A stretch of DNA of 64,000 nucleotides from Candidatus Kapaibacterium sp. (GTDB lineage Bacteria > Bacteroidota > Ignavibacteria > Kapaibacteriales > UBA2268): assembly GCA_963664875.1 (NCBI GenBank), contig OY761611.1, forward strand, positions 2,144,001 to 2,208,000, read 5' to 3'. Both the position numbers and the translations under genes were made by a program. The stretch's first letter is position 1. Every line of letters begins with the position of its first letter. Below the pieces are notes generated by a model. That model was not told the DNA's origin. It saw only the letters and a program-made list of their open reading frames with translations, and searched no databases. Shown here one piece after another: positions 5,813 to 42,720 of the stretch.

Positions 5813-5824
5813 AGGAGAGAAGAG

Positions 5825-6439
5825 ATGAAACTATACTTAGTTAAATATAAAGGCCCATTTGGATATATCAAACCTTGGACCGCTGTCAGAGACGATGAAA
5901 CTTTCAGCCAGCAATTTTTGACACCTTCCATTATAGAGGGTATGGAGAAAAAGCTTTTTCCGGAAATGCTCTCCCAAAAGGGAATTCAAAAGATTAAGAG
6001 ACATCGGTTGAGGTATAGAAGCATGTCAAAACAACAGGAAGTTACTCAACCCAAAGGTACTGAAATTAAAAGCAAACCAAAAGAAGGTAAAATTGAAGTC
6101 AAGAGAGATAGATCTATTATCAATCGCTTTGTACTCGTTGAACCAACTTTGTTTTTAGCATTTGATAACCAGGAAGATGCTGAAATAGCTTCAACACAAC
6201 ACATCTGCTTATGTAGAAATGAAGATGTGTTGCTTCCTACTCAGGAAATTATCGAAACAACTTCCGATGAATTCGATAACAATAATGGGAGTTTCAATGG
6301 TTTTGAACTAGTTTTTGGAGAGTCGGAAGATTCGTTTATTGTAGGTATGAATCGATATGATATGTCAAAAACCATGCACGGCAGTTTCAAAATAGTCGGT
6401 CAAAATCCTTTAATTTCTGAGTTTACTCATGAAGACTAA
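5825..6439 (+). CDS. cas5: CRISPR-associated protein Cas5
   Basis: N-terminal GPFGYIKPW...TPS..EG pattern, size and position in the cas operon. Confidence 0.75.
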   Translation: MKLYLVKYKGPFGYIKPWTAVRDDETFSQQFLTPSIIEGMEKKLFPEMLSQKGIQKIKRHRLRYRSMSKQQEVTQPKGTEIKSKPKEGKIEVKRDRSIINRFVLVEPTLFLAFDNQEDAEIASTQHICLCRNEDVLLPTQEIIETTSDEFDNNNGSFNGFELVFGESEDSFIVGMNRYDMSKTMHGSFKIVGQNPLISEFTHED

Positions 6440-8570: not shown

Positions 8571-8581
8571 GAGATTCTTAT

Positions 8582-9958: not shown

Positions 9959-9959
9959 T

Positions 9960-11030: not shown

Positions 11031-11035
11031 CGCTT

Positions 11036-11551
11036 ATGTTTGATCAGATTTATAAATCGCTTTCCGCTACAGGCACTGAGATTAACTATTTCTTTGTCTG
11101 TAAGCGGAAGCTTTGGTACTCAGCTCATCAGATTAACTGCGAAAACGAAAGTGATAATGTAGCTGCCGGTAATCTTTTGCACTCTGCCTCCTACCAAAAT
11201 AAAAGAAAAGAATACCTTTTCGATAAAATCAAAATTGACTGGTTGGATCTGAAAAACGGAATCATCCACGAAGTCAAAAAGTCTGACAAAATGGAAGAGG
11301 CTCACCTCTGGCAGCTTAAATACTATCTGCACTATTTCCGAGAAAAAGGTATTGGCAACTTCACCGGCGAACTAAACTATCCTCTACAAAAAAGCAAACT
11401 CACGGTTTCACTCGAAGATGATGATATCCCTAAATTGGAAAAGCTGCTGGAGGATATAGAAGCCATAAAACTGCTCGAAACAGTGCCGCCTTTGCCTTCA
11501 AAGAAGTCAATTTGTAATAAGTGCGCATACTATGAGCTGTGCTATATCTAA
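11036..11551 (+). CDS. cas4: Cas4 exonuclease
   Basis: CKRKLW, KID, EVKK, QLKYY and C-terminal CxxCxYxxxC. Confidence 0.95.
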   Translation: MFDQIYKSLSATGTEINYFFVCKRKLWYSAHQINCENESDNVAAGNLLHSASYQNKRKEYLFDKIKIDWLDLKNGIIHEVKKSDKMEEAHLWQLKYYLHYFREKGIGNFTGELNYPLQKSKLTVSLEDDDIPKLEKLLEDIEAIKLLETVPPLPSKKSICNKCAYYELCYI

Positions 11552-11560
11552 GGGGAACTT

Positions 11561-12634
11561 ATGAAAAAAAATATGTTTATTTTTACTCCGGGGAAGCTAT
11601 CGAGAAAAGATAATACCGTTTTTTATATGCCGTTTGCGTTTCCTACAGAAGCGGATGACGAGCAGTTGCAGGAAGAAATACTGCTTTCTATCGATAGTGA
11701 GCAGCCGGAAACTAACAGAGGTAACAAAAAAGTGCTGCCTATTGCCGACATTGATTCATTTTATATTATGACCGAAGCAAGCTACAATACTAAGTTTTTA
11801 GAGTTTTGTTCACAAAATAGCATAAGTATCCATTACTTTAACCGATTCGGATTTTACTACGGCTCATTTATTGGCAAAAGCAAACTCCAAAGCGGATATG
11901 CCCTTGTGCATCAGGTAGAGCATTACAAAAACAAGAAAAAGCGTCTTGCCCTTGCAAAATCTTTTGTTCGAGGTGCCGCATTTAACATTAGTAAAAATCT
12001 GAAATACTACAACAATCGCGAAAAAGACATGAGTGCCCAGCTTGACACAATTGAGTCTGTGCTTTATGAAATAGACGAAGCACAGGATATTGAGCACATT
12101 ATGAATGTGGAAGGCAGGATTCGCAAAATATACTATACTGCTTATAACGAGATATTGTCGAATGGATTTAAGTTCGAGAGGCGAAAATACAATCCGCCGA
12201 CCGACCCGATAAATGCGATAATTTCATATTGCAATTCGCTTGTTTATACTACTTGTTTGTCCGAGCTTTATCACACCCAGTTAGAACCGACAGTCTCGTT
12301 CCTGCACCAACCAAGCGAAAGGCGTTACTCTTTAGCGCTGGACTTGGCAGAGATATTCAAGCCTCTTATAGCAGACAGAATGATGTTCAAACTCATCAAT
12401 CAGGGGCAGCTCAAGCTAAATGATTTTGAAAAAGACCTTAACTACTGCTATCTCAAAGAATCCGGCAGAAAGAAAATCACACAGGAATATGACAAACGAC
12501 TACAAAAAACTATCAAACACAGAGATCTAAACAGAAATGTATCCTATCGCCGGCTAATCCGACTCGAATGTTACAAGCTGATAAAACACATCACCGGCGA
12601 AAAAGAATATGTACCATTTAAGGCATGGTGGTAG
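11561..12634 (+). CDS. cas1: Cas1 (type I-B)
   Basis: LSRKDNT, EGRIRKIYY, NAIISY, FLH, SLALDLAEIFKP and PFKAWW terminus. Confidence 0.96.
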   Translation: MKKNMFIFTPGKLSRKDNTVFYMPFAFPTEADDEQLQEEILLSIDSEQPETNRGNKKVLPIADIDSFYIMTEASYNTKFLEFCSQNSISIHYFNRFGFYYGSFIGKSKLQSGYALVHQVEHYKNKKKRLALAKSFVRGAAFNISKNLKYYNNREKDMSAQLDTIESVLYEIDEAQDIEHIMNVEGRIRKIYYTAYNEILSNGFKFERRKYNPPTDPINAIISYCNSLVYTTCLSELYHTQLEPTVSFLHQPSERRYSLALDLAEIFKPLIADRMMFKLINQGQLKLNDFEKDLNYCYLKESGRKKITQEYDKRLQKTIKHRDLNRNVSYRRLIRLECYKLIKHITGEKEYVPFKAWW

Positions 12635-12635
12635 T

Positions 12636-12902
12636 ATGTATTACATAGTAGTTTACGACATCAACGAAAAGCGTGTCAATAAAATGCTGAAGCTATGTCG
12701 GCAGTATTTGCACTGGGTGCAAAATTCAACATTTGAAGGCGAACTGACACCGGTGCAAATGGCAGAATTAAAAATGCGAGCCAAGCAGATAATGATCAAT
12801 GAAGAAGACTCATTAATCATTTATAAAATACGCTCGGATAAGTACTTAGACAAAGAAATGATGGGCAAGGACAAGAGTGACTTGACTTCAAATTTCATAT
12901 AA
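12636..12902 (+). CDS. cas2: Cas2
   Basis: MYYIVVYDI...WVQNSTFEGELT; true start is the ATG at 12636. Confidence 0.95.
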   Translation: MYYIVVYDINEKRVNKMLKLCRQYLHWVQNSTFEGELTPVQMAELKMRAKQIMINEEDSLIIYKIRSDKYLDKEMMGKDKSDLTSNFI

Positions 12903-13124
12903 TTGGTCGTCGGGCTATAAAAATCCGGACATTTTTTCTCAAAAAACAGGAGACAAATCAACTTTGTTCTTTGACAACTTAGAAATAAAGGGAACATAGA
13001 GATAGTTGTCGCAGTCCCGAGGAAAAAGCAGAATAGCACATCGACAACAGGAGCAATCAAAAACGAATATAAAAAACGACGAAAATAGAAAATATTCGTA
13101 TATTTGCCTATGAAAATTGTCGGC
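12903..13124 (+). promoter_or_regulatory. CRISPR leader
   Basis: AT-rich non-coding segment between cas2 and the first repeat; degenerate repeats lie at the opposite end of the array. Confidence 0.8.
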
Positions 13125-16100
13125 CATCTAATCGCACCACTGTAGTATTGAAATGTTGCATTGTGTCTATGCCAAAGAATAGTGCCGATACATCTAATCG
13201 CACCACTGTAGTATTGAAATCATCACAAACGCAAAGCACAAGTTTATTGTTTTTTCATCTAATCGCACCACTGTAGTATTGAAATAAAATTTTAGCAAGT
13301 TTTTTTGAATAAATTGCGTATCATCTAATCGCACCACTGTAGTATTGAAATAATGTAGCAGAGTCTATTAAGTCGTTCGCTTCCTTTCATCTAATCGCAC
13401 CACTGTAGTATTGAAATGATATTTGCTCTCTAATAAAGTTAAATATGTTTACACATCTAATCGCACCACTGTAGTATTGAAATTTTTGTAATAATACCAT
13501 AGCGGCTCTAATTTGAGTACATCTAATCGCACCACTGTAGTATTGAAATAATAAAAACAGTTTATAGCTTGTTTATGTAGCTCGTCATCTAATCGCACCA
13601 CTGTAGTATTGAAATTCGATTGCTCCACCTTTCCAAAATCCTTTTGCATTTGCATCTAATCGCACCACTGTAGTATTGAAATAATAATTCTTATGTATTG
13701 TACCATATTTACGCAGTCGGCATCTAATCGCACCACTGTAGTATTGAAATACTGATAACTTATAAGCATTTAATACAGACGTTAATCATCTAATCGCACC
13801 ACTGTAGTATTGAAATTTAGGTTCTGAAATTCCATTACTTTCAGTAGATGTCATCTAATCGCACCACTGTAGTATTGAAATGTGAATTGTGAAATACTAT
13901 TAGTTATAGCTGTTAACATCTAATCGCACCACTGTAGTATTGAAATCTCGATAAACTCTATATCGGATAAGTCAAATATTGTCATCTAATCGCACCACTG
14001 TAGTATTGAAATTGCCAAACGTGGAATATACAACTTAGTCAATATCGGCATCTAATCGCACCACTGTAGTATTGAAATTCAAACCTTGCAACGCCTTGCA
14101 ATTTCAATTCAATTTCATCTAATCGCACCACTGTAGTATTGAAATCTAAGATTAACAAAGACGATGCACAATTAAACAGCGACATCTAATCGCACCACTG
14201 TAGTATTGAAATACGTATTCGTAAGCTAAAGTTAAATCTACTGTAACGTCATCTAATCGCACCACTGTAGTATTGAAATTTGGAGTTACAGTTAGATTCT
14301 CTGTCGTTGTTTGGCCATCTAATCGCACCACTGTAGTATTGAAATGTAAATAACAGAGCTATTCACTATCTCTACGAGCAACATCTAATCGCACCACTGT
14401 AGTATTGAAATCATGGGAAACTATATCATATCAGGAACAACTTGAAACATCTAATCGCACCACTGTAGTATTGAAATACTAAAATTATGATAGTAAGCTA
14501 TCTCTGCGGCGTTCATCTAATCGCACCACTGTAGTATTGAAATAGGAATTTCCCCGGCTACATATTTAATAATTCGTGACATCTAATCGCACCACTGTAG
14601 TATTGAAATTCAATACTCTGAAAAATGTCACAAGCTCTGAGTCAACATCTAATCGCACCACTGTAGTATTGAAATTTGCAAGGGCAATACCTTTAGCACG
14701 ATCATTGAAACATCTAATCGCACCACTGTAGTATTGAAATCATTTTGTTAAACAACATATTGATTCTAAAATTCCCGCATCTAATCGCACCACTGTAGTA
14801 TTGAAATGTGTTTTTTACAGTGCGATTGAAAGTATCAAATTCGCATCTAATCGCACCACTGTAGTATTGAAATTTTAATGGTTAGTTATGATATTAATAC
14901 TATCCTCAAACATCTAATCGCACCACTGTAGTATTGAAATGGCTGACGAGTCGTAGAGCTTGGGTCTTGAAACCTACATCTAATCGCACCACTGTAGTAT
15001 TGAAATCTGCATAAACGGCAGCCGCTGCAAGACCGCCCATTACATCTAATCGCACCACTGTAGTATTGAAATTGCGTTCGCTTTGTCAAAACCTACTGTT
15101 TTTATATCCATCTAATCGCACCACTGTAGTATTGAAATGTATGTAATCACTTAAATTAACTGATTTAATATTCCATCTAATCGCACCACTGTAGTATTGA
15201 AATCTCGAATATTGTTTTAGCCTTGATATTGCTCTTTGCATCTAATCGCACCACTGTAGTATTGAAATACCGCACAGGCAGCTACTCAAATTAGAGCTGC
15301 TATGGCATCTAATCGCACCACTGTAGTATTGAAATTCGACAACGGGGCGACGTGGCGTAAATTTGAAACGGCATCTAATCGCACCACTGTAGTATTGAAA
15401 TAAATCTAAAGCAAGCATCTCTAATTCAATATCATTGACATCTAATCGCACCACTGTAGTATTGAAATTATCAAATAGTTGCTACTGAAAAGATAATTGA
15501 AGAACATCTAATCGCACCACTGTAGTATTGAAATATTACTACAATGGCTATAAGTCAGACGACGGTAAACCCATCTAATCGCACCACTGTAGTATTGAAA
15601 TTGATGTAACATTAACTTTAGAGGGTACTGATAATGCATCTAATCGCACCACTGTAGTATTGAAATATAGTGCCTTATGCTATTCAAGCATTCAAAGATT
15701 ATCATCTAATCGCACCACTGTAGTATTGAAATCGATTGAGAATTACGTTATGATCGATAGCCGTTTGCCATCTAATCGCACCACTGTAGTATTGAAATGA
15801 TGTTAGAATTTCTTTAAAATCGGTATCGTATTCGCATCTAATCGCACCACTGTAGTATTGAAATGCTATTAAGTTATAATCTTGTGCTTTTGGAATTGCC
15901 ATCTAATCGCACCACTGTAGTATTGAAATTTAAAAACATCAGTAGAGGCATTAAGCGACGTTGTTCATCTAATCGCACCACTGTAGTATTGAAATTAATG
16001 CAAGATAATTACTATGTAGAAGCGCCAATTTCATCTAATCGCACCACTGTAGTATTGAAATATAGTTAGATATTCAAAAGGGCTTGCAATGGTAAGACAT

Positions 16101-19100
16101 CTAATCGCACCACTGTAGTATTGAAATTTTTGTGAAACAGCAAGCTCTAAAGACTTATTAACCATCTAATCGCACCACTGTAGTATTGAAATCAGTTCAA
16201 AGATTTCTTGCTCTGTCATATCTCGCATCATCTAATCGCACCACTGTAGTATTGAAATTTCGCAAGCAGAAAATCTTGCGGAGGGCTTTATTAGCATCTA
16301 ATCGCACCACTGTAGTATTGAAATTTGACTGCAATGTTTCGTTTGGTATGTATTCGAGGCATCTAATCGCACCACTGTAGTATTGAAATAATAATACGGA
16401 TAACACAGTAACTGACAATACTGATCATCTAATCGCACCACTGTAGTATTGAAATCCAAATAGCGTTTGGCTTCTCGCATCAACAAAACAACATCTAATC
16501 GCACCACTGTAGTATTGAAATTTTTCAAAAACTTTATTAGTGTAGAAGTCCCAAACTACATCTAATCGCACCACTGTAGTATTGAAATTATTAAAATAAA
16601 ATAATTGTATAATTCAAAACTTTTCATCTAATCGCACCACTGTAGTATTGAAATGAATTGTAATCATTTGTTACTAAAGTTTGATACAAACATCTAATCG
16701 CACCACTGTAGTATTGAAATATGAGTATAATCAGGCACTTGCAATCAGCGATAATGCATCTAATCGCACCACTGTAGTATTGAAATTAAGCCAAAAACAA
16801 GACCTATGACTAAAGAGGAAATCATCTAATCGCACCACTGTAGTATTGAAATACTAAATACATAGAAATTGGTTCTTTGGAATCTGACATCTAATCGCAC
16901 CACTGTAGTATTGAAATACCGACAGATAATAAATTATTTTATGATACTAAAGCCATCTAATCGCACCACTGTAGTATTGAAATCAGTACAACAATTAACT
17001 CTGTTAAAGCTATGGATAACATCTAATCGCACCACTGTAGTATTGAAATTTTTCAAAAACTTTATTAGTGTAGAAGTCCCAAACTCATCTAATCGCACCA
17101 CTGTAGTATTGAAATTTCTATCCTTAAAAGAATGAGCAAAAAGCCTATCCACATCTAATCGCACCACTGTAGTATTGAAATTATCTACTCGATTAAAAAC
17201 AATATTGTCCGTGTCAGCATCTAATCGCACCACTGTAGTATTGAAATGCTGGTGAAGCTATTATACCACTTGACAAGTTGCCAACATCTAATCGCACCAC
17301 TGTAGTATTGAAATTTCTGTTTATAAAATTAACTAACTTACTATCTTTGCATCTAATCGCACCACTGTAGTATTGAAATGATTATACTCATCGGTTTGCA
17401 AAAATCGTTCAATATCATCTAATCGCACCACTGTAGTATTGAAATCCAAAATATGATAGTCTTTGCCTGTAATCTTATTCATCATCTAATCGCACCACTG
17501 TAGTATTGAAATTTTATTTTCATAAATTACTAAACTCGGATTTCTATCCATCTAATCGCACCACTGTAGTATTGAAATCCATGAATGACAAAATCACAAT
17601 TTTCTTTATGGAAGCATCTAATCGCACCACTGTAGTATTGAAATATTTATGAAAAACATATCTGTTAGAAAAATATTCAAACATCTAATCGCACCACTGT
17701 AGTATTGAAATCTTGTATTAGTTCCTGTAAAGTTACCGAAAACTTGCCATCTAATCGCACCACTGTAGTATTGAAATTATGTTTGGAGTGCAAGAGCTTT
17801 GGACTTTAGCAAGCATCTAATCGCACCACTGTAGTATTGAAATTTAAATTCATAGCTAAAGATTTAGTTTTAGTGCCACATCTAATCGCACCACTGTAGT
17901 ATTGAAATTTGCAATAAGCGATGTAACAGACTTACAGTCAGAGCTTCATCTAATCGCACCACTGTAGTATTGAAATAACTTTAGCCAAAATTCAGGTCAA
18001 TATTATGATAATCATCTAATCGCACCACTGTAGTATTGAAATCCTGCTGGTTCGATAATGCTTGCACTTTCGGCAGGCATCTAATCGCACCACTGTAGTA
18101 TTGAAATCTTTGTATTTGATAACATTCAAAATAACACGAAGTAACATCTAATCGCACCACTGTAGTATTGAAATTCAAATTGTTGCGACTTAGTCAAAAC
18201 TCGCAATTCCATCTAATCGCACCACTGTAGTATTGAAATAAGTCAGGAGATTACTTAGTTTGGAATTACGGAAGTGCATCTAATCGCACCACTGTAGTAT
18301 TGAAATTATAGACCATCAGATGATGACGGATTAGTACCATTTCATCTAATCGCACCACTGTAGTATTGAAATCACGGTACACATACTATGGTGGCTCTCG
18401 CTTTAATCATCTAATCGCACCACTGTAGTATTGAAATTTAAATTTGCATTTAGCTTTGACTGCTCGCTTCCGCATCTAATCGCACCACTGTAGTATTGAA
18501 ATTTAATCAATGGCTTGTTAACTCGTATAGTTTCGAGCACATCTAATCGCACCACTGTAGTATTGAAATCGTAAGGTTTGCGGTTCATAAGTTTGAGTAC
18601 TTGAACCATCTAATCGCACCACTGTAGTATTGAAATGACACATATTATCAGATTATAGATGACGATGATTCTCATCTAATCGCACCACTGTAGTATTGAA
18701 ATTGCGGAATCGGTCCATATAAGAGCTATGACAGAATCCATCTAATCGCACCACTGTAGTATTGAAATAACGGTCGACGTTGGATATATTAAAGTCCAAT
18801 ACACCATCTAATCGCACCACTGTAGTATTGAAATAGATTTTGATTTATATTACGAAACAGCCGACACAGACATCTAATCGCACCACTGTAGTATTGAAAT
18901 GTAGTATTTTTACGTACTCTGTAATTTTGAGCCGCAACATCTAATCGCACCACTGTAGTATTGAAATAATATAAAAGTAATCGGATTTATAATTTTGTCT
19001 CCACATCTAATCGCACCACTGTAGTATTGAAATCTTGTTCAAAGAGCTGCATAACATTATAACCGTCCGCATCTAATCGCACCACTGTAGTATTGAAATG

Positions 19101-22100
19101 AACTAATACTTGACATTTTGCCCCTGATTTATCTGACATCTAATCGCACCACTGTAGTATTGAAATATGTTATCCTCACCTGTTTCAGCACCACCGATAT
19201 TGCCATCTAATCGCACCACTGTAGTATTGAAATATTGAACTTGTGCATAATTAGTATTTATCTTCTCTCATCTAATCGCACCACTGTAGTATTGAAATTA
19301 GAAAGGATTTAAAACGCAAACATTTGATAGAAAACATCTAATCGCACCACTGTAGTATTGAAATTTTTTTAAATTGTCATTAGTGCCGTCGGGTTGGTCG
19401 CATCTAATCGCACCACTGTAGTATTGAAATTAATAAATATCTAATCAATTTATAATCTTCTTTCTCAACATCTAATCGCACCACTGTAGTATTGAAATGA
19501 GCTTTGATATTTGTAGTCCGAAAGATTCATTTTTCATCTAATCGCACCACTGTAGTATTGAAATTTATTCATTGCTTTTAACATTGGACGGTACTTGTTA
19601 GCATCTAATCGCACCACTGTAGTATTGAAATTTGACTACGTTGTTCTCTTTACATATTCTAAATACCCATCTAATCGCACCACTGTAGTATTGAAATACA
19701 TTTGCCTATAACTATATGCAAAATGTTAGTCGTCATCTAATCGCACCACTGTAGTATTGAAATTTGCTATTTGCTTACACTTCTTACTAATTTTACTTAC
19801 ATCTAATCGCACCACTGTAGTATTGAAATTACTGAGTGCAATGTGGGAAATGACAGAGGCGGCAACATCTAATCGCACCACTGTAGTATTGAAATACAAT
19901 TAAAGCCGATTCAGCTTCAGGAATGCCCTGTCATCTAATCGCACCACTGTAGTATTGAAATAACTCAATTATAGACAATATGTTTGATTTCCAAAAACAT
20001 CTAATCGCACCACTGTAGTATTGAAATCGTTCTAAGGCTGCGATTATATTGCTGAATTGTTGCCATCTAATCGCACCACTGTAGTATTGAAATGCTACGA
20101 CAAATTATGTCGTAATGTTTACAATCCATCATCTAATCGCACCACTGTAGTATTGAAATACGCTACCCGTCACCGTGCAAATAGGGCGTTTGTATCATCT
20201 AATCGCACCACTGTAGTATTGAAATTAAAATTTTTTCAATAGGTCTCGTTCGGCAATATATCATCTAATCGCACCACTGTAGTATTGAAATAAGCTTACG
20301 AGGGCTCAATAACAGAATTAAGTCAAACATCTAATCGCACCACTGTAGTATTGAAATTCGTTCACGGCATCCATTACGACCTGCCCTTGCGACATCTAAT
20401 CGCACCACTGTAGTATTGAAATGCACAATACAGATATTCTTGTCGTGTTATAGCTATACATCTAATCGCACCACTGTAGTATTGAAATGAACGCGCGACG
20501 TTAACAAAAAACAGCTTCGTTGCCATCTAATCGCACCACTGTAGTATTGAAATTAAAGACCCAACAACGGGAGCAAATATCAAGTTCTGGCATCTAATCG
20601 CACCACTGTAGTATTGAAATTTTAACGATGCTCGTATAGTATCTATATGTAACTCTTCATCTAATCGCACCACTGTAGTATTGAAATCATTTGCTCACAT
20701 TTGGTTTGCTATTGTGCAGGCTCCATCTAATCGCACCACTGTAGTATTGAAATTTTTGATTATACTTTATTACTAAGTCGTAATATTGCATCTAATCGCA
20801 CCACTGTAGTATTGAAATTTTTTGAAAACAAGTATATAGTCAGGCTGAGCTGTCATCTAATCGCACCACTGTAGTATTGAAATGTAGAAGAAGCGTTGCA
20901 CTTAAATTGTCTGCTATGCATCTAATCGCACCACTGTAGTATTGAAATACAAGTAATGGATAAGAAAAAAGGAATATAGAATGACATCTAATCGCACCAC
21001 TGTAGTATTGAAATCTTGGCTCTACACAAGCCCCGGAAGAATACTATCCTCATCTAATCGCACCACTGTAGTATTGAAATCCTTTAATACCATGTAATTG
21101 ACTGGTTTATTTCAATCATCTAATCGCACCACTGTAGTATTGAAATGTAAAATTACCAAAAACTTGCACTACTCCTGCACTACATCTAATCGCACCACTG
21201 TAGTATTGAAATAAGTCTAAAATGCTTGCTTCCTGTATCGGTTTAATTGCATCTAATCACACCACTGTAGTATTGAAATTATGGTGGTGCTGGGGAAGTA
21301 TTTAAAGGTCAAGACATCTAATCGCACCACTGTAGTATTGAAATCACGCTTAAATATATAATTAACTTGTTAAACAAACACATCTAATCGCACCACTGTA
21401 GTATTGAAATCTTGGTAGTGGGGGGATATGGAGCGACTCGGCACAACATCTAATCGCACCACTGTAGTATTGAAATAAGAACACAATATCCGCTTGATGC
21501 AGGAAGAACTTTGCATCTAATCGCACCACTGTAGTATTGAAATTAAAGTACCCTCGCCTTTACGTGGGTTCGCACCCGCATCTAATCGCACCACTGTAGT
21601 ATTGAAATACCAAAGACACATAAAGAATGTAAATAAATTTCCACATCTAATCGCACCACTGTAGTATTGAAATTCAGCACTAAACAAGAAGTCAATAGTT
21701 GTCGTCCCGCATCTAATCGCACCACTGTAGTATTGAAATTAAGAACCGAATAGTAGTAAGATACCTAATACTATCCATCTAATCGCACCACTGTAGTATT
21801 GAAATGATACTATGCAACTGGGTAGCGTAACAGAGGTATTTGCATCTAATCGCACCACTGTAGTATTGAAATTATGGTGGTGCTGGGGAAGTATTTAAAG
21901 GTCAAGACATCTAATCGCACCACTGTAGTATTGAAATCACGCTTAAATATATAATTAACTTGTTAAACAAACACATCTAATCGCACCACTGTAGTATTGA
22001 AATCTTGGTAGTGGGGGGATATGGAGCGACTCGGCACAACATCTAATCGCACCACTGTAGTATTGAAAAATCAGTAGAATTGCAGATATTAAAAGAACGT

Positions 22101-25100
22101 ACTGACATCTAATCGCACCACTGTAGTATTGAAAAATGCCTATAATCTGGAACAGCTTGCTTAACTTCGTACATCTAATCGCACCACTGTAGTATTGAAA
22201 AATTGAGGCAACTGAATTAACGGACGACGGGACAAGTCATCTAATCGCACCACTGTAGTATTGAAAAATTGCAATATCAGATGTAACAGGCTTGCAGGGC
22301 GAGCCATCTAATCGCACCACTGTAGTATTGAAAAAAAATTCAAAACCTGAGCCGCCTCCGCCGCCCATTGCATCTAATCGCACCACTGTAGTATTGAAAA
22401 AAAGATAACATTAGTCATTTTTTTCATTTTAGAACTCCATCTAATCGCACCACTGTAGTATTGAAAACCAGCAGCAGCACTAACAATTCCAATCGGTTCG
22501 CAAGGCATCTAATCGCACCACTGTAGTATTGAAAACTTAGCTCTGCATAACTTGCAGCTCTATAACGCATCATCTAATCGCACCACTGTAGTATTGAAAA
22601 CCGCCTGCATTGCGTATCATCTGCCCCCGTGTACGACATCTAATCGCACCACTGTAGTATTGAAAACCGCCTGCATTGCGTATCATCTGCCCCCGTGTAC
22701 GACATCTAATCGCACCACTGTAGTATTGAAAAAAAGTATCAAACAATCCTGAAAACAAAGCTTGTACCATCTAATCGCACCACTGTAGTATTGAAAAAGG
22801 TCTAAATTTGCGTTTTTGGCTCTGATTACGCCACATCTAATCGCACCACTGTAGTATTGAAAAGTAATTTTAGTATTATCACCAGTACCGCCAGCTGTTC
22901 ATCTAATCGCACCACTGTAGTATTGAAAATTATAAGTAGATTTCCCTTGCGTTTCATAAAACAGACATCTAATCGCACCACTGTAGTATTGAAAATAAAT
23001 CCGAATATTTCAAGCCTACAAAGAACGAAAATCATCTAATCGCACCACTGTAGTATTGAAAACAATTAAATACTGATAATTCATTCCGTAAATAAACTTC
23101 ATCTAATCGCACCACTGTAGTATTGAAAATGCAATCCCATTGTAGAAACCACCGCACCAGTCATATCATCTAATCGCACCACTGTAGTATTGAAAATTGC
23201 TTATATGAGTTCCTTTGTAGTAAGTATCTACATCTAATCGCACCACTGTAGTATTGAAAACACTCTTAAAGATGAAGGCAAGGTAGCAATACCTGACATC
23301 TAATCGCACCACTGTAGTATTGAAAATTTTCGGCAACAGCACATACGGCAGAACTATCGTTCATCTAATCGCACCACTGTAGTATTGAAAATTGGATATC
23401 GTTATCAATATCATTCATAAAATCAGCCATCTAATCGCACCACTGTAGTATTGAAAACTAAGCTATCCAATGCCATTGCTTCGGATTCAAATTGCATCTA
23501 ATCGCACCACTGTAGTATTGAAAAAAAGAGTCTTTAAAGGCTACATATAAGCAAATGTTACATCTAATCGCACCACTGTAGTATTGAAAAAAATCAGCTG
23601 GAACCGGAAACTGAACACGCAAAAGCATCTAATCGCACCACTGTAGTATTGAAAACTGTTTATAATCAGCATGTTTTCTAATCTTTGTAAACATCTAATC
23701 GCACCACTGTAGTATTGAAAAAACCCTAAGAACTCCTTAACACCGTTTGCAATGTCCATCTAATCGCACCACTGTAGTATTGAAAACTGCAAATATTATT
23801 GATTACTTGCATCCAAAATCAGTCATCTAATCGCACCACTGTAGTATTGAAAATTTAAGTCAGCACAAATGATGTGTGATAAGCACGTACATCTAATCGC
23901 ACCACTGTAGTATTGAAAATATTCAAGATACAAGAATTATAGGAGCCCGTATATACATCTAATCGCACCACTGTAGTATTGAAAACAGGGTATAGGTGGG
24001 ATTGCTAACAGAATATATCACATCTAATCGCACCACTGTAGTATTGAAAAATTGTTCTTTAATTTTTGTATCTCTTTTAATCGAATCATCTAATCGCACC
24101 ACTGTAGTATTGAAAACACTAATCGGCAGCATAGTATCGACGTCTAACTCACATCTAATCGCACCACTGTAGTATTGAAAATGTTTTAATACTAAAGGGG
24201 GTAATCCATTATTATCTACATCTAATCGCACCACTGTAGTATTGAAAATCCATTATTGCATAATACAAATCTTCTTTGCTCATTCATCTAATCGCACCAC
24301 TGTAGTATTGAAAATGCATTATTTAGAAGTAATCCATGTTCAATATAACCCATCTAATCGCACCACTGTAGTATTGAAAAATTGTAGCTGCTGATGTGAT
24401 TGTGATTGACTGTAAAGCATCTAATCGCACCACTGTAGTATTGAAAAGTTAATGAATTGCCTAAAAGCCTATGCTCTTTATGCATCTAATCGCACCACTG
24501 TAGTATTGAAAAAGTTATACGAATTAGACGTTAATACAATGCTTCATACATCTAATCGCACCACTGTAGTATTGAAAACTCGTTATGAGTGAAACGGTAT
24601 ATGTGCCGGCTGGGCATCTAATCGCACCACTGTAGTATTGAAAAAACAAAAACACGGTTTTGTTCTTCAACAAATTGCACATCTAATCGCACCACTGTAG
24701 TATTGAAAACACCTAACTCGCCCGTGTTGTCATAGACTTGTTTGTCATCTAATCGCACCACTGTAGTATTGAAAAAAAAGTTATTTAGCTCACCGCCTGA
24801 CAAATTGCTACATCTAATCGCACCACTGTAGTATTGAAAAGGATTTGGCACGTACGCAATCAATTCAGATAACGAGGCATCTAATCGCACTACTGTAGTA
24901 TTGAAAAGCGTCTATTTCGTCTCTATGCCTAATTACTTTGTAGTCATCTAATCGCACCACTGTAGTATTGAAAAGCGAAAATCATTAGGCTCTTGAAGCA
25001 ATTTGATTTCACATCTAATCGCACCACTGTAGTATTGAAAAACGCAAAATGAATAACATCAAAGCACAAAGCGAGGGCATCTAATCGCACCACTGTAGTA

Positions 25101-28100
25101 TTGAAAATATAAACTCCAAACGTACTTTGTCAAACTCTTTCACCATCTAATCGCACCACTGTAGTATTGAAAATATAATCTATACGGATACTAATGAGCG
25201 ACGTATTTCATCTAATCGCACCACTGTAGTATTGAAAAGTTCTTTATGAACTATAACTAATTGATTGTTTTCAGCATCTAATCGCACCACTGTAGTATTG
25301 AAAAATTGGTGTTATATAGTAGGGGCGGCTAAGCCCCTATCATCTAATCGCACCACTGTAGTATTGAAAAGACATTGTGATAGGCTTTTTAAATTCTCTG
25401 CATTTCATCTAATCGCACCACTGTAGTATTGAAAAGAATCCCATGTTCGGGCCAATGGATTGTAAACGTTACGCATCTAATCGCACCACTATAGTATTGA
25501 AAACCAACAACAAGTGCATCTATTAAGTCGTTCGCTTCCTCATCTAATCGCACCACTGTAGTATTGAAAATATTCTGAAACATATTTTGCAATTTTTTTT
25601 AGTTTTCATCTAATCGCACCACTGTAGTATTGAAAATAATGAGAATGAAACATATTTTGATGAAGATACTTATGCATCTAATCGCACCACTGTAGTATTG
25701 AAAATTGACAATTTCCCCTGTATAAATAGCAGTTTTAGCCACATCTAATCGCACCACTGTAGTATTGAAAACCATTCAGCACTTTGTTTACATATTCTAA
25801 TTCAATTCATCTAATCGCACCACTGTAGTATTGAAAAGAAACATATAATGCTTTTATAGATTATATATATGCTTCATCTAATCGCACCACTGTAGTATTG
25901 AAAAGCTGATTTCGGAGCCGGCTATTACGTTCCTCGCTCCCATCTAATCGCACCACTGTAGTATTGAAAATTTTCTTTACCGATTCCACAGCTCTCACAC
26001 CCCCACATCTAATCGCACCACTGTAGTATTGAAAATAGCCGTAACAGAGTTAATTGTGGTGCTGTGGTCTCCATCTAATCGCACCACTGTAGTATTGAAA
26101 AAAAAAATGAGCACAAAAGTATTAAATCCAAATATTTCATCTAATCGCACCACTGTAGTATTGAAAATGCCGAGCAATTTATAACATTGACAGCCGACAC
26201 GACATCTAATCGCACCACTGTAGTATTGAAAATTGTGCAATATTCGTATAATAATAATCAGGTTCTTTTCATCTAATCGCACCACTGTAGTATTGAAAAT
26301 GAAACAGTGGTGTTTGAGGATGGTTCAAAACATCATCATCTAATCGCACCACTGTAGTATTGAAAAGATAAACTATAAAATTAGAATAACTACTTGCGTT
26401 CGCCATCTAATCGCACCACTGTAGTATTGAAAATGCACTTGAATTGAGCTGTCTGGGTGCTGATTGGCAGCATCTAATCGCACCACTGTAGTATTGAAAA
26501 CAAAGAACGGCTAAATCATTTAATATGGATTGCACTTCATCTAATCGCACCACTGTAGTATTGAAAACGATTAGCAACTGGTGGCATCGCTACGAGTGAT
26601 ACACATCTAATCGCACCACTGTAGTATTGAAAACATGAAATAATAAAATTGCATGAAAAATATGGCTTCCCATCTAATCGCACCACTGTAGTATTGAAAA
26701 AACGATATGACTTCCTTAAAGGTCAATTTGAGTATTACATCTAATCGCACCACTGTAGTATTGAAAAGTTTTTCAGTCAGTAGGCGGTGCAATCGGTGAA
26801 TTACATCTAATCGCACCACTGTAGTATTGAAAATGACTTCTAAGTTCAATAATCTTCAATGTAACTTTGTCATCTAATCGCACCACTGTAGTATTGAAAA
26901 ATCTATCTATTACATCTAATTGTAACGGATGTACGTGCATCTAATCGCACCACTGTAGTATTGAAAACCGGTTACGAGCTTAACAATTATATTGACTTAA
27001 AGGCATCTAATCGCACCACTGTAGTATTGAAAACCTTCTTGCTCAAATACCTGCTTAACTTCGTAACCGTCATCTAATCGCACCACTGTAGTATTGAAAA
27101 GTCTATTAGTGCCAAGTATTCAGAGTCACCGTACACATCTAATCGCACCACTGTAGTATTGAAAAAAATATCAGCAGGCTCTTTGTAGTCATCAATACCA
27201 AACATCTAATCGCACCACTGTAGTATTGAAAATATTTTTTAATATATGACTTTGCTTTTTGGTATAACACATCTAATCGCACCACTGTAGTATTGAAAAG
27301 TCATTTTCAATAGCCACTATATCCTGAGGTAATTTCATCTAATCGCACCACTGTAGTATTGAAAATTAGGCTGTCCATTAACACCTGAGCCTAAGAGCAA
27401 ACATCTAATCGCACCACTGTAGTATTGAAAATGTTTTTAAATCGAGTGAGTAAGTGAAACGTTCGTATCATCTAATCGCACCACTGTAGTATTGAAAATT
27501 GGAAGTTCAAAGTAAAGAGGTTGAATTTAAATTTCATCTAATCGCACCACTGTAGTATTGAAAATTTTGTAGAGCTGCCTGTATCGCTGTTACTATTCCC
27601 CATCTAATCGCACCACTGTAGTATTGAAAAACGTGCAGGGACTGCCAAACCGTCAAGTTTTGATTTCATCTAATCGCACCACTGTAGTATTGAAAATTAA
27701 TAATCGTTTCTAAATACATGCCATATTCTGCACCATCTAATCGCACCACTGTAGTATTGAAAATAGTATCAATAATACCTAAGACCGAGTCATACATGAC
27801 ATCTAATCGCACCACTGTAGTATTGAAAATATCTACTCATTTTGTAACTCCGATTGCTGTTGTTTGCATCTAATCGCACCACTGTAGTATTGAAAATTTG
27901 CAGGCATAGATATTTAGAGCCGAAAAAATGACATCTAATCGCACCACTGTAGTATTGAAAATTTAGTATATTTCTCTAACTTAACTATTATATCTTTCAT
28001 CTAATCGCACCACTGTAGTATTGAAAATTATCGGGCAGGTCGCCTGTATTTGATTGCCCTAAAACATCTAATCGCACCACTGTAGTATTGAAAACGGAAA

Positions 28101-29056
28101 TTTTATAGTATTGATCCTTTGATTACGTTGTCATCTAATCGCACCACTGTAGTATTGAAAAAAGGCTTGGAACGTGCGAGTATAACGAGATGTTTGGACA
28201 TCTAATCGCACCACTGTAGTATTGAAAATGAAGCAGACAGGCAGGCAGAAGAAGTAATATATACCATCTAATCGCACCACTGTAGTATTGAAAAGCTTGG
28301 AAGTTCGAAGATGCGTCATTATCGAGATGACATCTAATCGCACCACTGTAGTATTGAAAAGTTCCTGCCGTCCCTCCTCCTCGGAAATTTTATAGTACAT
28401 CTAATCGCACCACTGTAGTATTGAAAACCAACACGGAAAAGTCCAAGCTCGTTCGCTACCTGCCATCTAATCGCACCACTGTAGTATTGAAAATTATCAC
28501 TATTGACTGCATTCATAAGCTCTGAATAACATCTAATCGCACCACTGTAGTATTGAAAAACGAGCAGGAACTGCCAAACCGTCAAGTTTTGATTTAGCAT
28601 CTAATCGCACCACTGTAGTATTGAAAACTTCTATATCCTTAATACAATTTTCAACCGAAGCACATCTAATCGCACCACTGTAGTATTGAAAATTTTCTGT
28701 CTTAGCTTCACTTTCTAAGCTCTTGTGAACATCTAATCGCACCACTGTAGTATTGAAAAAAGAAATTTGGTAAAACTACTTTTTTATTGAACTCTCATCT
28801 AATCGCACCACTGTAGTATTGAAAGCTAATTTTTCGGCAATTTCCTGATTCGCTTCAAAAGCATCTAATCGCACCACTGTAGTATTGAAAGTTCATCACG
28901 TATAAGATTTTCAAAATAAATACAAAACATCTAATCGCACCACTGTAGTATTGAAAGGACCGACAACCGGGGTCGGTTTTGTTGTGGTTATATCATCTAA
29001 TCGCACCACTGTAGTATTGAAAGCAGCATTATGCCTTCAAAATTCCCCTCAAGAGG

Positions 29057-30248
29057 CAGGGATGATTTGTTCTTTGTAAATATCATATAATATAGTAAAT
29101 TATAGAAAGCCAAACACAAACTTTTCTAATCTGGGGGGATTTATGGAAAAGCAAACGTTAGTAAATTATCTTGATAAGTTGACAGATAAGCGTCGCAGGG
29201 AAGGCACACGCCATAATCAATCATTTGTATTATTGCTGGTTTTGATGGCGACTATGAGCGGACAATATGGCTATCGTGGCATAGAAAGATTTATAAAGAA
29301 GAATGCCGAAGACATACTGAAATATTTAAAGCCTCATAAAGATAGATTACCAACTTACGCAACAATTTTTAGAGTGGTAAATAATATAGATTTTGATGAA
29401 TTTGCACAGATTTTTAAAGAGTGGTCAAAAGTTTATGCAAAGCCTCAAAGCGGTGAAATAATCAGTATAGATGGCAAAGCTTTGAAAGGCACATTAGTAG
29501 AATACAATTCGAAATACCAGAACTTTATAAGCATTGTTTCTGCACATTCTCAATCAAGTAAAATGTCACTAAGTATAAGCAAATATGAGAATAAAAAATC
29601 AAGCGAGATAAGCGTAGTTGAAGAAATGATTAGAGATTTAGAACTGACTGGCGTAGTCTTTACAATGGATGCTTTACACTGTCAAAAAAACTCTAAGAAC
29701 AATTGTTAGTACTAACAACAACTATATTATTTGCGTAAAAAAGAATCAAGGTCGTTTGTACAAAGAACTGGAGAGTTTGAGTTCGAGCTGGTCAACAAAG
29801 ATCGATTATTATAAAACCGAAGAAACTAATAGAGACAGACGAGAAACTCGTAAAGTATATGTATATTCATTAAACGATAAAATTAAGAACGAGTGGTCCG
29901 GATCACAGCAATTAGTAAAGGTACAAAGGATTAGAAAAACAAAACAAATGCAGGAAGTTCATGTACATTATTATTTGAGCAGTCAAGAAAAACCAGCAAA
30001 GTATTATATGCAGAGCATACGAGGACATTGGGGCATTGAAAACCAGCTACATTGGGTAAAGGATGTGGTAATGAAAGAAGATGCTTGGAAAGTGAGAAAT
30101 ACACAAGCAGCTTCAGTCATGAGTATAATAAAGTCAATTTGTATCAATATTTTTAGGTCAAAGAAGCGTATTGATTGTACCAACTTTTTCTATGAGACTG
30201 CCGACAATGTAGAACTATTGGTGACTTTGTTAGAATGAATCAACCCTG
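29057..30248 (+). mobile_element. ISAs1-family insertion sequence inside a CRISPR spacer
   Basis: Terminal inverted repeats CAGGGATGATT...AATCAACCCTG; transposase motifs IDGKALKG, DALHCQK and HWGIENQLHW. Confidence 0.93.
29143..30238 (+). CDS. ISAs1 transposase split into two ORFs (29143-29709 and 29669-30238)
   Basis: The frame changes at the A7 run (29684-29690) in HCQK; either frameshifted expression or a pseudogene. Confidence 0.8.
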
Positions 30249-32394
30249 CCTCTTGAGGGGTGGCATCTAATCGCACCACTGTAGTATTGAAAGAATAGTT
30301 ACAAAGAGGGTACGGAGGAAAATGAGAGGCATCTAATCGCACCACTGTAGTATTGAAAGTGACTTCGAAGCTCAATAATTTTGAGTGTAACTTTACATCT
30401 AATCGCACCACTGTAGTATTGAAAGAAGCTTTTGATAATATTCTTAGGTCTAAGGTATGGCCATCTAATCGCACCACTGTAGTATTGAAAGTAATACGTG
30501 TATCTGGTAGCGTTCGTTATTGATTTCCATCTAATCGCACCACTGTAGTATTGAAAGGTGCCTGCGTTTCTAACAAGATTCTAAAATTCATTCATCTAAT
30601 CGCACCACTGTAGTATTGAAATACATTACCAAGTAGTGTTACTCGGTTTAGTGATTTTGCATCTAATCGCACCACTGTAGTATTGAAATTTGAATATCGT
30701 TATCAATGTCATTCATAAAGTCAGCCATCTAATCGCACCACTGTAGTATTGAAATCCGATGGCGTGAACTATGCTGCAGCTACTGGAAGCGACATCTAAT
30801 CGCACCACTGTAGTATTGAAATTACATCCTCGCCCGCGGTCTTGAAAGTTGCTGCAAGCATCTAATCGCACCACTGTAGTATTGAAATTACATCTTTTCA
30901 ACTGCAAGCGTTGCAACTGCAATGCATCTAATCGCACCACTGTAGTATTGAAATTAAGGCGGTGTAATATGGCAAGAACAATAATAGTTAACATCTAATC
31001 GCACCACTGTAGTATTGAAATTGGATTAACGGCAGGTCGTCTAAGTTAGATTTTGGTCATCTAATCGCACCACTGTAGTATTGAAATACAGTGAATTATT
31101 AGACAAAAAATACTTAGATAACGCATCTAATCGCACCACTGTAGTATTGAAATCAAGCTCCTAATCTAAATAGAAAGCTTTGGCTTGACATCTAATCGCA
31201 CCACTGTAGTATTGAAATACTAAGTGGCAAATATCACATGATAACTACACACACCATCTAATCGCACCACTGTAGTATTGAAATTATGCTTATAAGTATA
31301 AGACCAATTCTCAAGTATATCATCTAATCGCACCACTGTAGTATTGAAATAAAACTTGTACCACACCCTGTGAGTTGTTCGGTATGCATCTAATCGCACC
31401 ACTGTAGTATTGAAATTGGATTAACGGCAGGTCGTCTAAGTTAGATTTTGGTCATCTAATCGCACCACTGTAGTATTGAAATCTTTTTCCTCTAATAATT
31501 GAACTATCAAAGTGTCTTGCATCTAATCGCACCACTGTAGTATTGAAATTGATTTTATGGTAGGCAGATATTTGTTTATCAGTTCACATCTAATCGCACC
31601 ACTGTAGTATTGAAATAGCTAGCAACTATAAAAACACTTTTGCACAATTTGCCATCTAATCGCACCACTGTAGTATTGAAATGATCATGAAGATATAGCC
31701 GCATATATCGAATACACCCATCTAATCGCACCACTGTAGTATTGAAATTAATCAGCACCAACTGTAAATACTATCTCATTGCCTTCATCTAATCGCACCA
31801 CTGTAGTATTGAAATGACTTGTCTTTATCTATTGATTCAAGTATAAAGCAATCATCTAATCGCACCACTGTAGTATTGAAATTCCAATACACATCGCTGT
31901 TATCAACTTCTTCTTTTAACATCTAATCGCACCACTGTAGTATTGAAATACAAATACGGTCTATTTAGTAGCTGTAAGAGTCGCTGCATCTAATCGCACC
32001 ACTGTAGTATTGAAATTTTCAAGATGTAGATTTAGATACAAAAACTATTTCATCATCTAATCGCACCACTGTAGTATTGAAATTTTTGAGCAAGATTTGT
32101 CCCCATAGAGTTTCATTTTCATCTAATCGCACCACTGTAGTATTGAAATATAGATTTGATTAGTATATTTAACCTTGCTCACTTCCATCTAATCGCACCA
32201 CTGTAGTATTGAAAGGACTGCAATTTTACATTTAGGCTATACGAAACAAAAAGCTCTAATCGCACCACTATAGTATTGAAATCCGAATTTTTCGGCAAGT
32301 TGCTGAGCTTTTCCGCCACATCTAATCGCACCACTGTAGTATTGAAATATAATAGCGATATTAAAAAGAAATCCCCGGATAATGCATCTAATCG

Positions 32395-42561: not shown

Positions 42562-42603
42562 CTCTCTTTGAAAATTTATCGCTTTTTTCGATTAAAGCAC
42601 TAA

Positions 42604-42676: not shown

Positions 42677-42720
42677 CTCTCTTTTGAGAAATTTATCGCT
42701 TTCTTCGATTTAAGCATCAA

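What the first reader, a model, noticed from the sequence alone, without database searches (positions are those of the whole stretch)
13125..32394. Only the last repeat base changes, in long blocks (T, A, G, T)
Seen: repeats end in GAAAT from 13125 to about 22003 (about 135 repeats), GAAAA from 22040 to 28759 (about 100), GAAAG from 28796 to 30557 (9), and GAAAT from 30593 on, with one G at 32186. The other 29 positions show only isolated variants that do not propagate. Known: new repeats are copied from the leader-proximal repeat, and in type I-E the last repeat base comes from the PAM. Inference: position 30 is normally templated but is occasionally overwritten by a prespacer/PAM-derived base during integration and then inherited. 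This would be an intermediate acquisition mode that stamps epochs into the array. Recombination between arrays of different strains is the alternative.
Basis: partly seen in the sequence, partly recalled or inferred. Interest (0 to 1): 0.7.

Follow-up and report, generated by a model that had tools for sequence, protein, structure and literature searches.

The report
Last CRISPR repeat base inherited in blocks
A very long CRISPR array keeps 29 of its 30 repeat bases fixed but has switched the last base several times, each new letter being copied into all later repeats, so the array carries time stamps that point to an unexplained event at the site where new spacers are joined.

Summary
The window holds a type I-B array of 273 full 30-nt repeats. 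The last base runs T x135, A x102, G x9, T x24, G x1, T x2 from the leader end. Only 4 repeats vary anywhere else, and none of those variants spreads.

The pattern is not local. In 72 related arrays (3670 repeats), 18 of 20 multi-repeat variant runs lie at position 30, leaving out one aberrant array. Ordinary point mutation predicts about 2% inherited runs. The other 29 positions fit that (2 of 61); position 30 does not (18 of 24).

Position 30 is normally copied from the leader-proximal repeat, and the changes arise in that repeat. The proposed source of the new base is not supported:
- The PAM inferred from overlapping spacers is CCN, and position 30 differs from PAM -1 in 17 of 21 spacers.
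- Spacers at the switches are not shorter than others.
- The new bases (T19, C13, G9, A3) do not follow PAM -1 composition.

No protospacer of a switch spacer was found. Switching between two states within an array, and crowding of switches toward the old end, remain unexplained. Recombination between lineages stays a live rival for part of the pattern.

The parts
5156..12902 (+). cas operon: cas6, 204-aa ORF (no family hit), cas3, 458-aa ORF (no hit, in the cas8 position), weak cas7, cas4, cas1 (type I-B model), cas2
   Evidence: Cas1 scores 430.5 bits on TIGR03641 (cut-off 304.1). Cas6, Cas3 HD+helicase, Cas4 and Cas2 are above their cut-offs. Cas7 is below its cut-off. This is the only cas1 in the genome.
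12903..13124 (+). leader between cas2 and the first repeat; it sets the newest end of the array
   Evidence: The same layout (cas2 end, leader, array) is seen in relatives G094, G035 and G071.
13125..22039 (+). newest block: repeats 1-135 ending in T, with their spacers
21250..21446 (+). repeat-spacer units 124-126, identical in spacer content and order to units 133-135
   Evidence: spacers 124/133 match 35 of 35, 125/134 36 of 36, 126/135 36 of 36.
21843..22039 (+). units 133-135, the second copy of the three-spacer segment; its right edge is the T/A boundary
22040..28795 (+). block of repeats 136-237 ending in A, with their spacers
28796..30592 (+). block of repeats 238-246 ending in G, with spacers; interrupted by an insertion sequence
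29045..30260 (+). insertion sequence in spacer 241 (DDE transposase in two overlapping ORFs, 29143-29709 and 29669-30238); limits approximate
   Evidence: PF13808, PF01609; same left end at 7 places in the genome.
30593..32185 (+). older block: repeats 247-270 ending in T, with spacers
32186..32215 (+). repeat 271, a single repeat ending in G
32253..32348 (+). repeats 272 (three internal changes) and 273, both ending in T
32385..32394 (+). 10-nt stump of a 274th repeat; the old end of the array is cut off and followed by a fragment that reads like the end of a transposase gene
   Evidence: sequence read directly. The transposase reading is my inference from the translated tail and was not searched.

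Best explanation
The blocks are inheritance marks. At each acquisition the integrase (Cas1-Cas2, with Cas4) copies the whole leader-proximal repeat over a fixed 30 bp. Whatever base stands last in that repeat is therefore passed to every later repeat, and each spacer keeps the last base of its own upstream repeat as a birth mark. The changes themselves arise in the leader-proximal repeat, at the one base that borders the spacer-side joining site, and roughly 250 times more often than at other repeat positions. The most likely cause is an error of joining or of the gap repair that follows at that phosphodiester. The new base is not the PAM -1 base. Shown: the blocks, their restriction to position 30, the excess over point mutation, the CCN PAM, the mismatch between position 30 and PAM -1, and the 30-bp ruler. 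Inferred: that the event is coupled to integration or repair, and which enzyme makes it.
For: (1) Window: T135/A102/G9/T24/G1/T2, and only 4 isolated variants at other positions. (2) Family survey of 72 arrays and 3670 repeats. Leaving out array L045, variant runs at position 30 are 18 blocks and 6 singles; at the other 29 positions together they are 2 blocks and 59 singles (Fisher p = 1.8e-11). With 2% of repeat-time spent as first repeat, the other positions fit point mutation (2 of 61, 1.2 expected) and position 30 does not (18 of 24, P = 3e-26). (3) Position 30 is templated. The PAM from overlapping spacers is CCN (CCA 9, CCG 6, CCT 5, CCC 1 among 37 inferences), and position 30 differs from PAM -1 in 17 of 21, e.g. 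window spacer 227 (repeat A, PAM CCT) and spacer 55 (repeat T, PAM CCG). (4) Ruler. In the genome's second array an insertion sequence split the leader-proximal repeat after base 20. Since then 9 spacers were added with 10 chimeric repeats made of 20 repeat bases plus the first 10 bases of the insertion sequence, all exactly 30 nt. The genome has one cas1, the one in the window. This matches the experiments in Haloarcula hispanica, where repeats mutated at positions 21-25 or 26-30 were still duplicated over 30 bp (PMC4872114, passages read). (5) Spacer length at boundaries is unchanged (+0.29 +/- 0.18 nt, n = 44), as expected for a substitution and not for a shifted cut.
Against: No acquisition event was observed, so the coupling to integration or repair is inference. 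Arrays toggle between two states (G071 C/T through 9 switches, G035 T/G through about 9), which a simple copying error does not predict. It needs added selection on allowed bases or another mechanism. Boundaries crowd toward the old end (mean relative position 0.77, 75% in the last third, KS p = 8e-10). This needs loss of old spacers, or recombination, as an extra assumption. Only 23 of 44 changes are transitions (tally), a weak fit to polymerase error. Purifying selection could hide inherited variants at the other 29 positions. One array (G026, L045) shows mixed variants at positions 5 and 18, and G071 has a run at position 2.
Confidence: 0.5

Rival explanations
1. The last base is occasionally overwritten by a base brought in by the prespacer (the PAM -1 base or the first spacer base), through a one-base shift of the spacer-side cut. 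It is then inherited.
For: Only a shift at the spacer-side cut leaves a heritable mark, which would explain why position 30 alone changes (reasoning from the known two-site integration chemistry, described in PMC6698737, passages read). The 5' end of spacers does shift by one base at a rate similar to the switching rate: 6 of 216 directed long matches have offset +/-1, against 44 boundaries in 3670 repeats. In G035 the three inferred PAMs are CCT, CCG, CCT, and its array toggles T/G. A PAM-derived last base is established for type I-E and suggested for I-C (PMC8482600, section 9 read).
Against: Boundary spacers are not 1 nt shorter (+0.29 +/- 0.18), which excludes a shifted cut with a normal prespacer. 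New bases (T19 C13 G9 A3) differ from PAM -1 composition (A9 C1 G6 T6): chi-square p = 0.002, A depleted p = 0.0015, C enriched p = 0.024. In G071 both inferred PAM sites are CCA, yet its array toggles only C/T. The new base equals the first spacer base in 13 of 44 cases, about chance. In the two one-base 5' shifts that I looked at (arrays L030 and L031), no variant at position 30 was recorded in either array. If many boundaries are recombination junctions, these tests lose power.
Confidence: 0.2
2. Mosaic by recombination. Lineages that had each fixed a different last base exchanged or fused array segments by crossovers within repeats, so many block boundaries are junctions and not switches.
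For: Position 30 is the last homologous base, so it always travels with its downstream spacer (reasoning). Units 124-126 recur as units 133-135 in the same order with six unique spacers between them. This is most simply the fusion of two sister-lineage arrays, and the right edge of the second copy is the T/A boundary. Repeated replacement of the trailer part would give both two-state toggling and crowding of boundaries at the old end. Related arrays that differ only in the last base exist.
Against: No other array shares a spacer with the window's. The same repeat occurs in only one other genome held (G094, 135 repeats, all T), the exact repeat had 0 hits in the metagenome scan, and no G094 (L014) spacer matched a window spacer over more than 13 nt. 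Blocks of 1-3 repeats need many nested events. With 16 duplication edges and 5 boundaries, one coincidence has a chance of about 0.26 (my arithmetic). Each last-base allele still had to arise once in a first repeat, at least 12 times across 11 arrays against 2 at all other positions, so this does not remove the position-30 effect.
Confidence: 0.2
3. Ordinary neutral point mutation. Position 30 is simply the only unconstrained base, and mutations in the first repeat hitch-hike into later repeats.
For: Variants at the other 29 positions behave exactly as this predicts (2 inherited of 61, 1.2 expected). The last base differs among related repeat families (C in 35 arrays, T in 33, G in 4), so it is weakly constrained.
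Against: If position 30 were neutral, isolated variants should outnumber inherited ones about 50 to 1. The counts are 6 singles and 18 blocks (P = 3e-26). In the window the same test gives P = 1.5e-6.
Confidence: 0.05

Closest known systems
Ruler-based duplication of the leader-proximal repeat in type I-B Haloarcula hispanica (Wang et al. 2016, PMC4872114; passages read)
   Same: Both have a 30-bp repeat and a Cas1-Cas2-Cas4 module. The spacer-side cut lies at a fixed distance, and the 3' end of the repeat is copied whatever its sequence. The chimeric repeats of the second array are a natural equivalent of their mutants.
   Different: That work used engineered mutants and reported shifted duplication sizes (29, 31-33 bp). 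It did not report spontaneous heritable substitution of the last base in natural arrays.
PAM-derived last repeat base in type I-E, suggested for I-C (as summarised by Vink et al. 2021, PMC8482600, section 9 read)
   Same: The last repeat base has a special origin linked to the spacer-side junction.
   Different: There every new repeat takes its last base from its own prespacer. Here the base is inherited and disagrees with PAM -1 in 17 of 21 spacers.
Collapse and replenishment of type I-F arrays in Legionella pneumophila (Deecker and Ensminger 2020, PMC7056967; passages read)
   Same: The polymorphism is at the last repeat base (A or G in their Table 2), and a variant repeat that becomes leader-adjacent converts all later repeats.
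   Different: There the whole array is lost first, so no older blocks remain. Here successive blocks coexist in one array.
Pyrococcus furiosus Cas1-Cas2 integration in vitro (Grainy et al. 2019, PMC6698737; passages read)
   Same: The bases at the two attack sites (the first and last repeat base) influence efficiency and accuracy of integration. This offers a reason why only some last bases are seen.
   Different: It is an in vitro study of engineered substrates and has no data on inheritance in natural arrays.

Membership tests
Type I-B CRISPR-Cas | Cas1 of the I-B kind with Cas2 and Cas4 next to the array | tested here: met
   TIGR03641 430.5 bits (cut-off 304.1), Cas4 TIGR00372 75.5 (65), Cas2 TIGR01573 55.5 (24.5).
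Type I-B CRISPR-Cas | Cas3 with HD and helicase domains, and Cas6 | tested here: met
   TIGR01587 223 bits, TIGR01596 75.4 bits, Cas6 TIGR01877 88 bits.
Type I-B CRISPR-Cas | Cas8b, Cas7 and Cas5 of the I-B effector | tested here: inconclusive
   the 458-aa and 204-aa ORFs have no family hit. The 356-aa ORF hits the Cas7 models below their cut-offs (28.6 and 22.5 bits).
Type I-E-like PAM-derived last repeat base | The last base of each repeat equals the PAM -1 base of the spacer that follows it | tested here: not met
   equal in 4 of 21 spacers with an inferred CCN PAM. In the window, spacers 227 and 55 disagree, and 65 and 122 agree.
Ruler-based whole-repeat duplication (H. hispanica type) | A constant 30-bp duplication independent of the sequence of the last 10 bases | tested here: met
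   10 chimeric 30-nt repeats (20 repeat bases + 10 insertion-sequence bases) with 9 new spacers of 35-38 nt in the second array. There is a single cas1 in the genome.
Array collapse and replenishment (L. pneumophila I-F) | All repeats carry the sequence of the former last repeat, and no older block remains | tested here: not met
   six successive runs of three different last bases coexist.
Slipped spacer-side integration (29-bp duplication) | The spacer acquired at the switch is one base shorter and its lost first base is the new last repeat base | tested here: not met
   the mean deviation of 44 boundary spacers is +0.29 +/- 0.18 nt. The window's five are 36, 36, 35, 36 and 37 nt against a mean of 36.1.

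The most novel reading that the evidence does not exclude
The adaptation complex of this type I-B family occasionally rewrites the last base of the leader-proximal repeat while joining a spacer. This would be a mode between fully templated duplication and the type I-E mode, with a preference for C, T or G. Every spacer would then carry a birth mark. The 'mutated last repeat' seen in many CRISPR types would be a relic of earlier epochs of the same process and not decay of the terminal repeat.
Probability: 0.25. Interest if true: 0.75.

Novelty: new variant of a known kind. Interest (0 to 1): 0.6.

Why it matters
If the last repeat base is rewritten at the joining site and then inherited, it gives a built-in clock and lineage marker for CRISPR arrays. 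Blocks would date spacers, expose fusions and rearrangements, and separate loss from gain. It would also point to a step of spacer integration (fidelity of the spacer-side cut or of its repair) that has been studied only with engineered repeats. It can be tested directly with existing adaptation sequencing methods. It may also explain why terminal repeats so often differ at their 3' end.

Tried and rejected
Protospacer searches, all without a usable hit:
- Megablast of the whole array against the phage collection found no match.
- blastn of window 21100-29050 and 30250-32400 gave only noise. The best was E = 0.02, 52 nt at 81%, longer than a spacer. Window 13100-21099 was not searched in this mode.
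- Seven IMG/VR scans with pieces of spacers gave 0 hits each.
- BLAST of all 272 window spacers against the genome found only the two spacers shared with the second array.
- BLAST of 3586 family spacers against the 169 loci held at that point plus the genome found no convincing protospacer. One G094 spacer matches a multi-copy element in 32 of 37 bases, which I did not use.
- A family-wide DNA search with the array scored only 2 candidates per genome and gave related arrays, not protospacers.

Other searches that gave nothing:
- Sequencing runs: none was listed.
- The exact repeat was not found in metagenome contigs.

Models considered and rejected:
- A one-base insertion in the A run of the repeat to explain G to A. 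Spacer 237 would then start with G and be one base longer, and it does not.
- Copying of the next template base. The new base equals the first spacer base in 13 of 44 cases, about chance.
- The first repeat base or the last leader base as the source of the new base. This is inconsistent between arrays.
- Deletion between repeats as a cause of toggling. The last base travels with its spacer, so deletion cannot create new boundaries (reasoning).

Papers:
- Searches found no paper describing block-wise inheritance of the last repeat base in natural type I-B arrays. These are four keyword searches of an open-access library, not proof of absence.
Per-event junction data of PMC4872114, PMC6698737 and the P. 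furiosus uptake papers may bear on the claim, and I did not see them.
Full report
**Observation.** located every repeat in the window.
- There are 273 full 30-nt repeats on the + strand from 13125 to 32348. None lies on the reverse strand. A 10-nt stump of a further repeat sits at 32385-32394.
- The last base is T in repeats 1-135, A in 136-237, G in 238-246, T in 247-270, G in 271 and T in 272-273.
The G block looks long because a 1.2-kb insertion sequence lies in spacer 241.
- Elsewhere in the repeat only 4 of 273 copies vary, each alone: repeat 124 G10A, 179 C14T, 188 G18A, and 272 C1G, A2C, G18A.
- Spacers are 34-38 nt, mostly 36.

**Context.**
- Upstream on the same strand lies a cas operon (5156-12902). 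It holds cas6, cas3, cas4, a cas1 that passes the type I-B model, and cas2. There is also a weak cas7 and two ORFs without family hits in the places of cas5 and cas8.
- A 222-bp leader separates cas2 from repeat 1. The repeat ends in the motif that forms the 8-nt crRNA tag in such systems (recalled knowledge). The newest spacers are therefore at 13125 and the oldest at 32394.
- The history of the last base, old to new, reads T, G, T, G, A, T.
- The old end is cut off and followed by what reads like the tail of a transposase gene (my reading).
- The genome (3.83 Mb, one contig) has this repeat only here (273 of 273 matches). It has one cas1.

**Chance and point mutation.** A change is inherited only if it hits the repeat next to the leader.
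- In an array grown to 273 units, that repeat accounts for 2/(N+1) = 0.73% of all repeat-time.
- At least 3 of 4 position-30 events being inherited has P = 1.5e-6.

**The pattern is general.**
- The sister species G094 has the identical repeat 135 times, all ending in T.
- This gave 72 arrays of at least 8 repeats, 3670 repeats and 47 different consensus repeats. They are almost non-redundant: two pairs of loci share 2 and 1 spacers.
- The consensus last base is C in 35 arrays, T in 33, G in 4 and never A.
- Leaving out one aberrant array (G026, locus L045), variant runs at position 30 are 18 blocks of two or more repeats and 6 singles. At the other 29 positions together they are 2 blocks and 59 singles (Fisher p = 1.8e-11).
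- With 2% of repeat-time spent as first repeat, the other positions fit plain point mutation (2 of 61, 1.2 expected). Position 30 does not (18 of 24, P = 3e-26). Because many arrays are partial, the 2% is an overestimate, so the test is conservative.
- Results against a clean picture: G026 shows a salt-and-pepper mixture at positions 5 and 18 (9 short runs), and G071 has a run at position 2 and a pair at position 20.

**Is the last base taken from the PAM each time?** No protospacer could be found. I therefore inferred the PAM from spacers that overlap one another, so that one spacer shows the flank of the other.
- Of 37 such inferences, 21 had CC at -3 and -2: CCA 9, CCG 6, CCT 5, CCC 1. The other 16 were scattered triplets, mostly from 12-14-nt matches between arrays that are probably chance (earlier rounds).
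- The PAM is CCN, as listed for some type I-B systems (PMC8482600, Table 1 passage).
- The last repeat base equals PAM -1 in only 4 of these 21.
- In the window, spacer 227 (repeat ending A) has CCT and spacer 55 (repeat ending T) has CCG. Spacers 65 and 122 (T) have CCT.
- The last base is therefore normally templated and not taken from each prespacer as in type I-E.

**Is it occasionally taken from the prespacer?** Several tests speak against this, none of them direct.
- A shifted cut with a normal prespacer would make the spacer at the switch one base shorter. The 44 boundary spacers deviate from their array means by +0.29 +/- 0.18 nt. The window's five are 36, 36, 35, 36 and 37 nt.
- If an untrimmed PAM -1 base were used, the new bases should follow PAM -1 composition (A9 C1 G6 T6). 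They are T19 C13 G9 A3 (chi-square p = 0.002; A depleted p = 0.0015; C enriched p = 0.024).
- The new base equals the first base of the switch spacer in 13 of 44 cases, about chance.
- Spacers from the same site start at the same base in 204 of 216 directed long matches and one base off in 6. In the two shifted cases I looked at (arrays L030 and L031), no variant at position 30 was recorded in either array.
- These tests lose power if many boundaries are not switches but junctions.

**A natural test of the ruler.**
- The genome holds a second type I-B effector cluster (cas6, cas8b, cas7, cas5, cas3) without cas1, cas2 or cas4. It has its own array with a different 30-nt repeat.
- Two of its spacers are the same as window spacers 189 (35 of 36) and 99 (34 of 36), with the same 5' start. 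This fits one adaptation module serving both arrays.
- An insertion sequence of the same kind as the one in the window split the leader-proximal repeat of that array after base 20.
- Between the leader and the element there are now 10 chimeric repeats. Each is made of 20 repeat bases plus the first 10 bases of the element and is exactly 30 nt. They separate 9 spacers of 35-38 nt.
- The integrase therefore kept measuring 30 bp and copied whatever lay there. This is the behaviour shown with engineered repeats in Haloarcula hispanica (PMC4872114). It explains why any change of base 30 in the first repeat is inherited.

**What remains unexplained.**
- Arrays toggle between two states. G071 reads C4 T27 C70 T7 C17 T2 C8 T1 C6 T19. 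G035 reads T91 G1 T1 G2 T2 G6 T9 G3 T2 G3. A metagenome array reads T34 C1 T12 C5 T1 C4. The window reads T, G, T, G, then A, then T.
- Boundaries crowd toward the old end: mean relative position 0.77, 75% in the last third, KS p = 8e-10. The leader side is assumed from repeat orientation for contigs without cas genes.
- Loss of old spacers would compress old history, and selection on which last bases work would restrict the states. In P. furiosus the bases at the attack sites matter for integration (PMC6698737). Both remain assumptions.

**Recombination.**
- Because base 30 is the last homologous base, it always stays with its downstream spacer in any crossover between repeats.
- The window shows one clear rearrangement. 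Units 124-126 recur as units 133-135, in the same order, with six unique spacers between them. This is most simply a fusion of two sister-lineage arrays. The right edge of the second copy is the T/A boundary.
- With 16 duplication edges and 5 boundaries, the chance of one such coincidence is about 0.26 (my arithmetic).
- Other repeats of a spacer (52/60, 144/145, 253/259) may be re-acquisitions. Spacers 52 and 60 differ in length by one base.
- Repeated replacement of trailer parts between lineages with two last-base alleles would produce both toggling and crowding at the old end. I cannot exclude it for individual boundaries.
- It does not remove the core effect. Each allele had to arise in a first repeat, at least 12 times in 11 arrays, against 2 at all other positions.

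**Comparison with what is known.**
- Copying of the leader-proximal repeat by a ruler is established (PMC4872114; PMC5039180, search listing only).
- A last base brought by the PAM is established for type I-E and proposed for I-C (PMC8482600, section 9).
- In Legionella type I-F arrays the last repeat differs at its last base, and arrays refilled after collapse carry that base throughout (PMC7056967; review PMC8047081).
- What I did not find in four searches is a report that natural arrays change almost only the last repeat base in inherited blocks, at a rate far above point mutation.

**Verdict.**
- Templated inheritance from the first repeat is well supported.
- A process specific to the first repeat and to the base at the spacer-side junction is strongly indicated.
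- A PAM or prespacer origin of the new base is disfavoured but not directly tested.
- Recombination explains part of the pattern at best.
- I rate it a new variant of a known kind, interest 0.6.

Noticed in passing
L168 16622-17245 (G000:C1:1388621-1389244), outside the window: In the genome's second CRISPR array an insertion sequence split the leader-proximal repeat after base 20. Ten chimeric 30-nt repeats (20 repeat bases + the first 10 bases of the element) and 9 new spacers have since been added. This is a natural demonstration of a 30-bp ruler and of adaptation continuing on a repeat that has lost its 3' third. Whether these units give working crRNA is unknown.
   Followed up: yes
window 25571-25606 and 19632-19667; G000:C1:1394161-1394263: Window spacers 189 and 99 recur (35 of 36 and 34 of 36 bases, same 5' start) as neighbouring spacers near the old end of the second array, which has a different repeat and an effector-only type I-B cluster. 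The genome has a single cas1, so one adaptation module seems to feed two arrays.
   Followed up: partly
window 29045-30260; G000:C1 1389235, 1390966, 2078469, 2086485, 2592041, 3619275: The same insertion sequence (transposase in two overlapping ORFs) occurs 7 times in the genome. Two copies sit at the identical position inside repeats of the second array. Four of the others, among them the copy in window spacer 241, are flanked on the left by the same short motif; its inverted copy on the right was read only at the window copy. The copy at 3619275 has a different flank.
   Followed up: partly
window spacers, position +6: Spacer position 6 is A or T in 81% of the window's 271 spacers (T 49%), against 64% overall. 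In 3315 spacers of related arrays it is 71% against 59%. No explanation was tested.
   Followed up: no
window 42489-43025: Five tandem copies of tRNA-Thr (anticodon TGT) lie at a spacing of about 115 bp.
   Followed up: partly
L045 3128-5717 (G026:C2): An array of 40 repeats shows a salt-and-pepper mixture of variants at repeat positions 5 and 18 (and 4, 1, 17) but an almost constant last base. This is the opposite of the pattern studied here. Cause unknown.
   Followed up: no
L040 13688-14446 (G071:C1): Near the old end of the G071 array a variant at repeat position 2 (T to A) runs through about 11 repeats with one interruption. It is the only clear inherited variant outside position 30 in the survey apart from G026.
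   Followed up: no
window 32395-32475: The array ends in a 10-nt repeat stump joined to a fragment that reads like the C-terminal end of a transposase gene, so the oldest part of the array has been lost.
   Followed up: no
window 1542-4187, - strand: Two adjacent tyrosine recombinase genes (443 and 413 aa) lie upstream of the cas operon, which may mark a mobile island.
   Followed up: no
window about 12960-12975; L168 about 16600-16615; leaders of G094 and G071 arrays (L014, L040): A short T-rich motif recurs in the leaders of both arrays of this genome and of related arrays. A similar stretch follows the first 10 bases of the insertion sequence. Seen by eye only.
   Followed up: no
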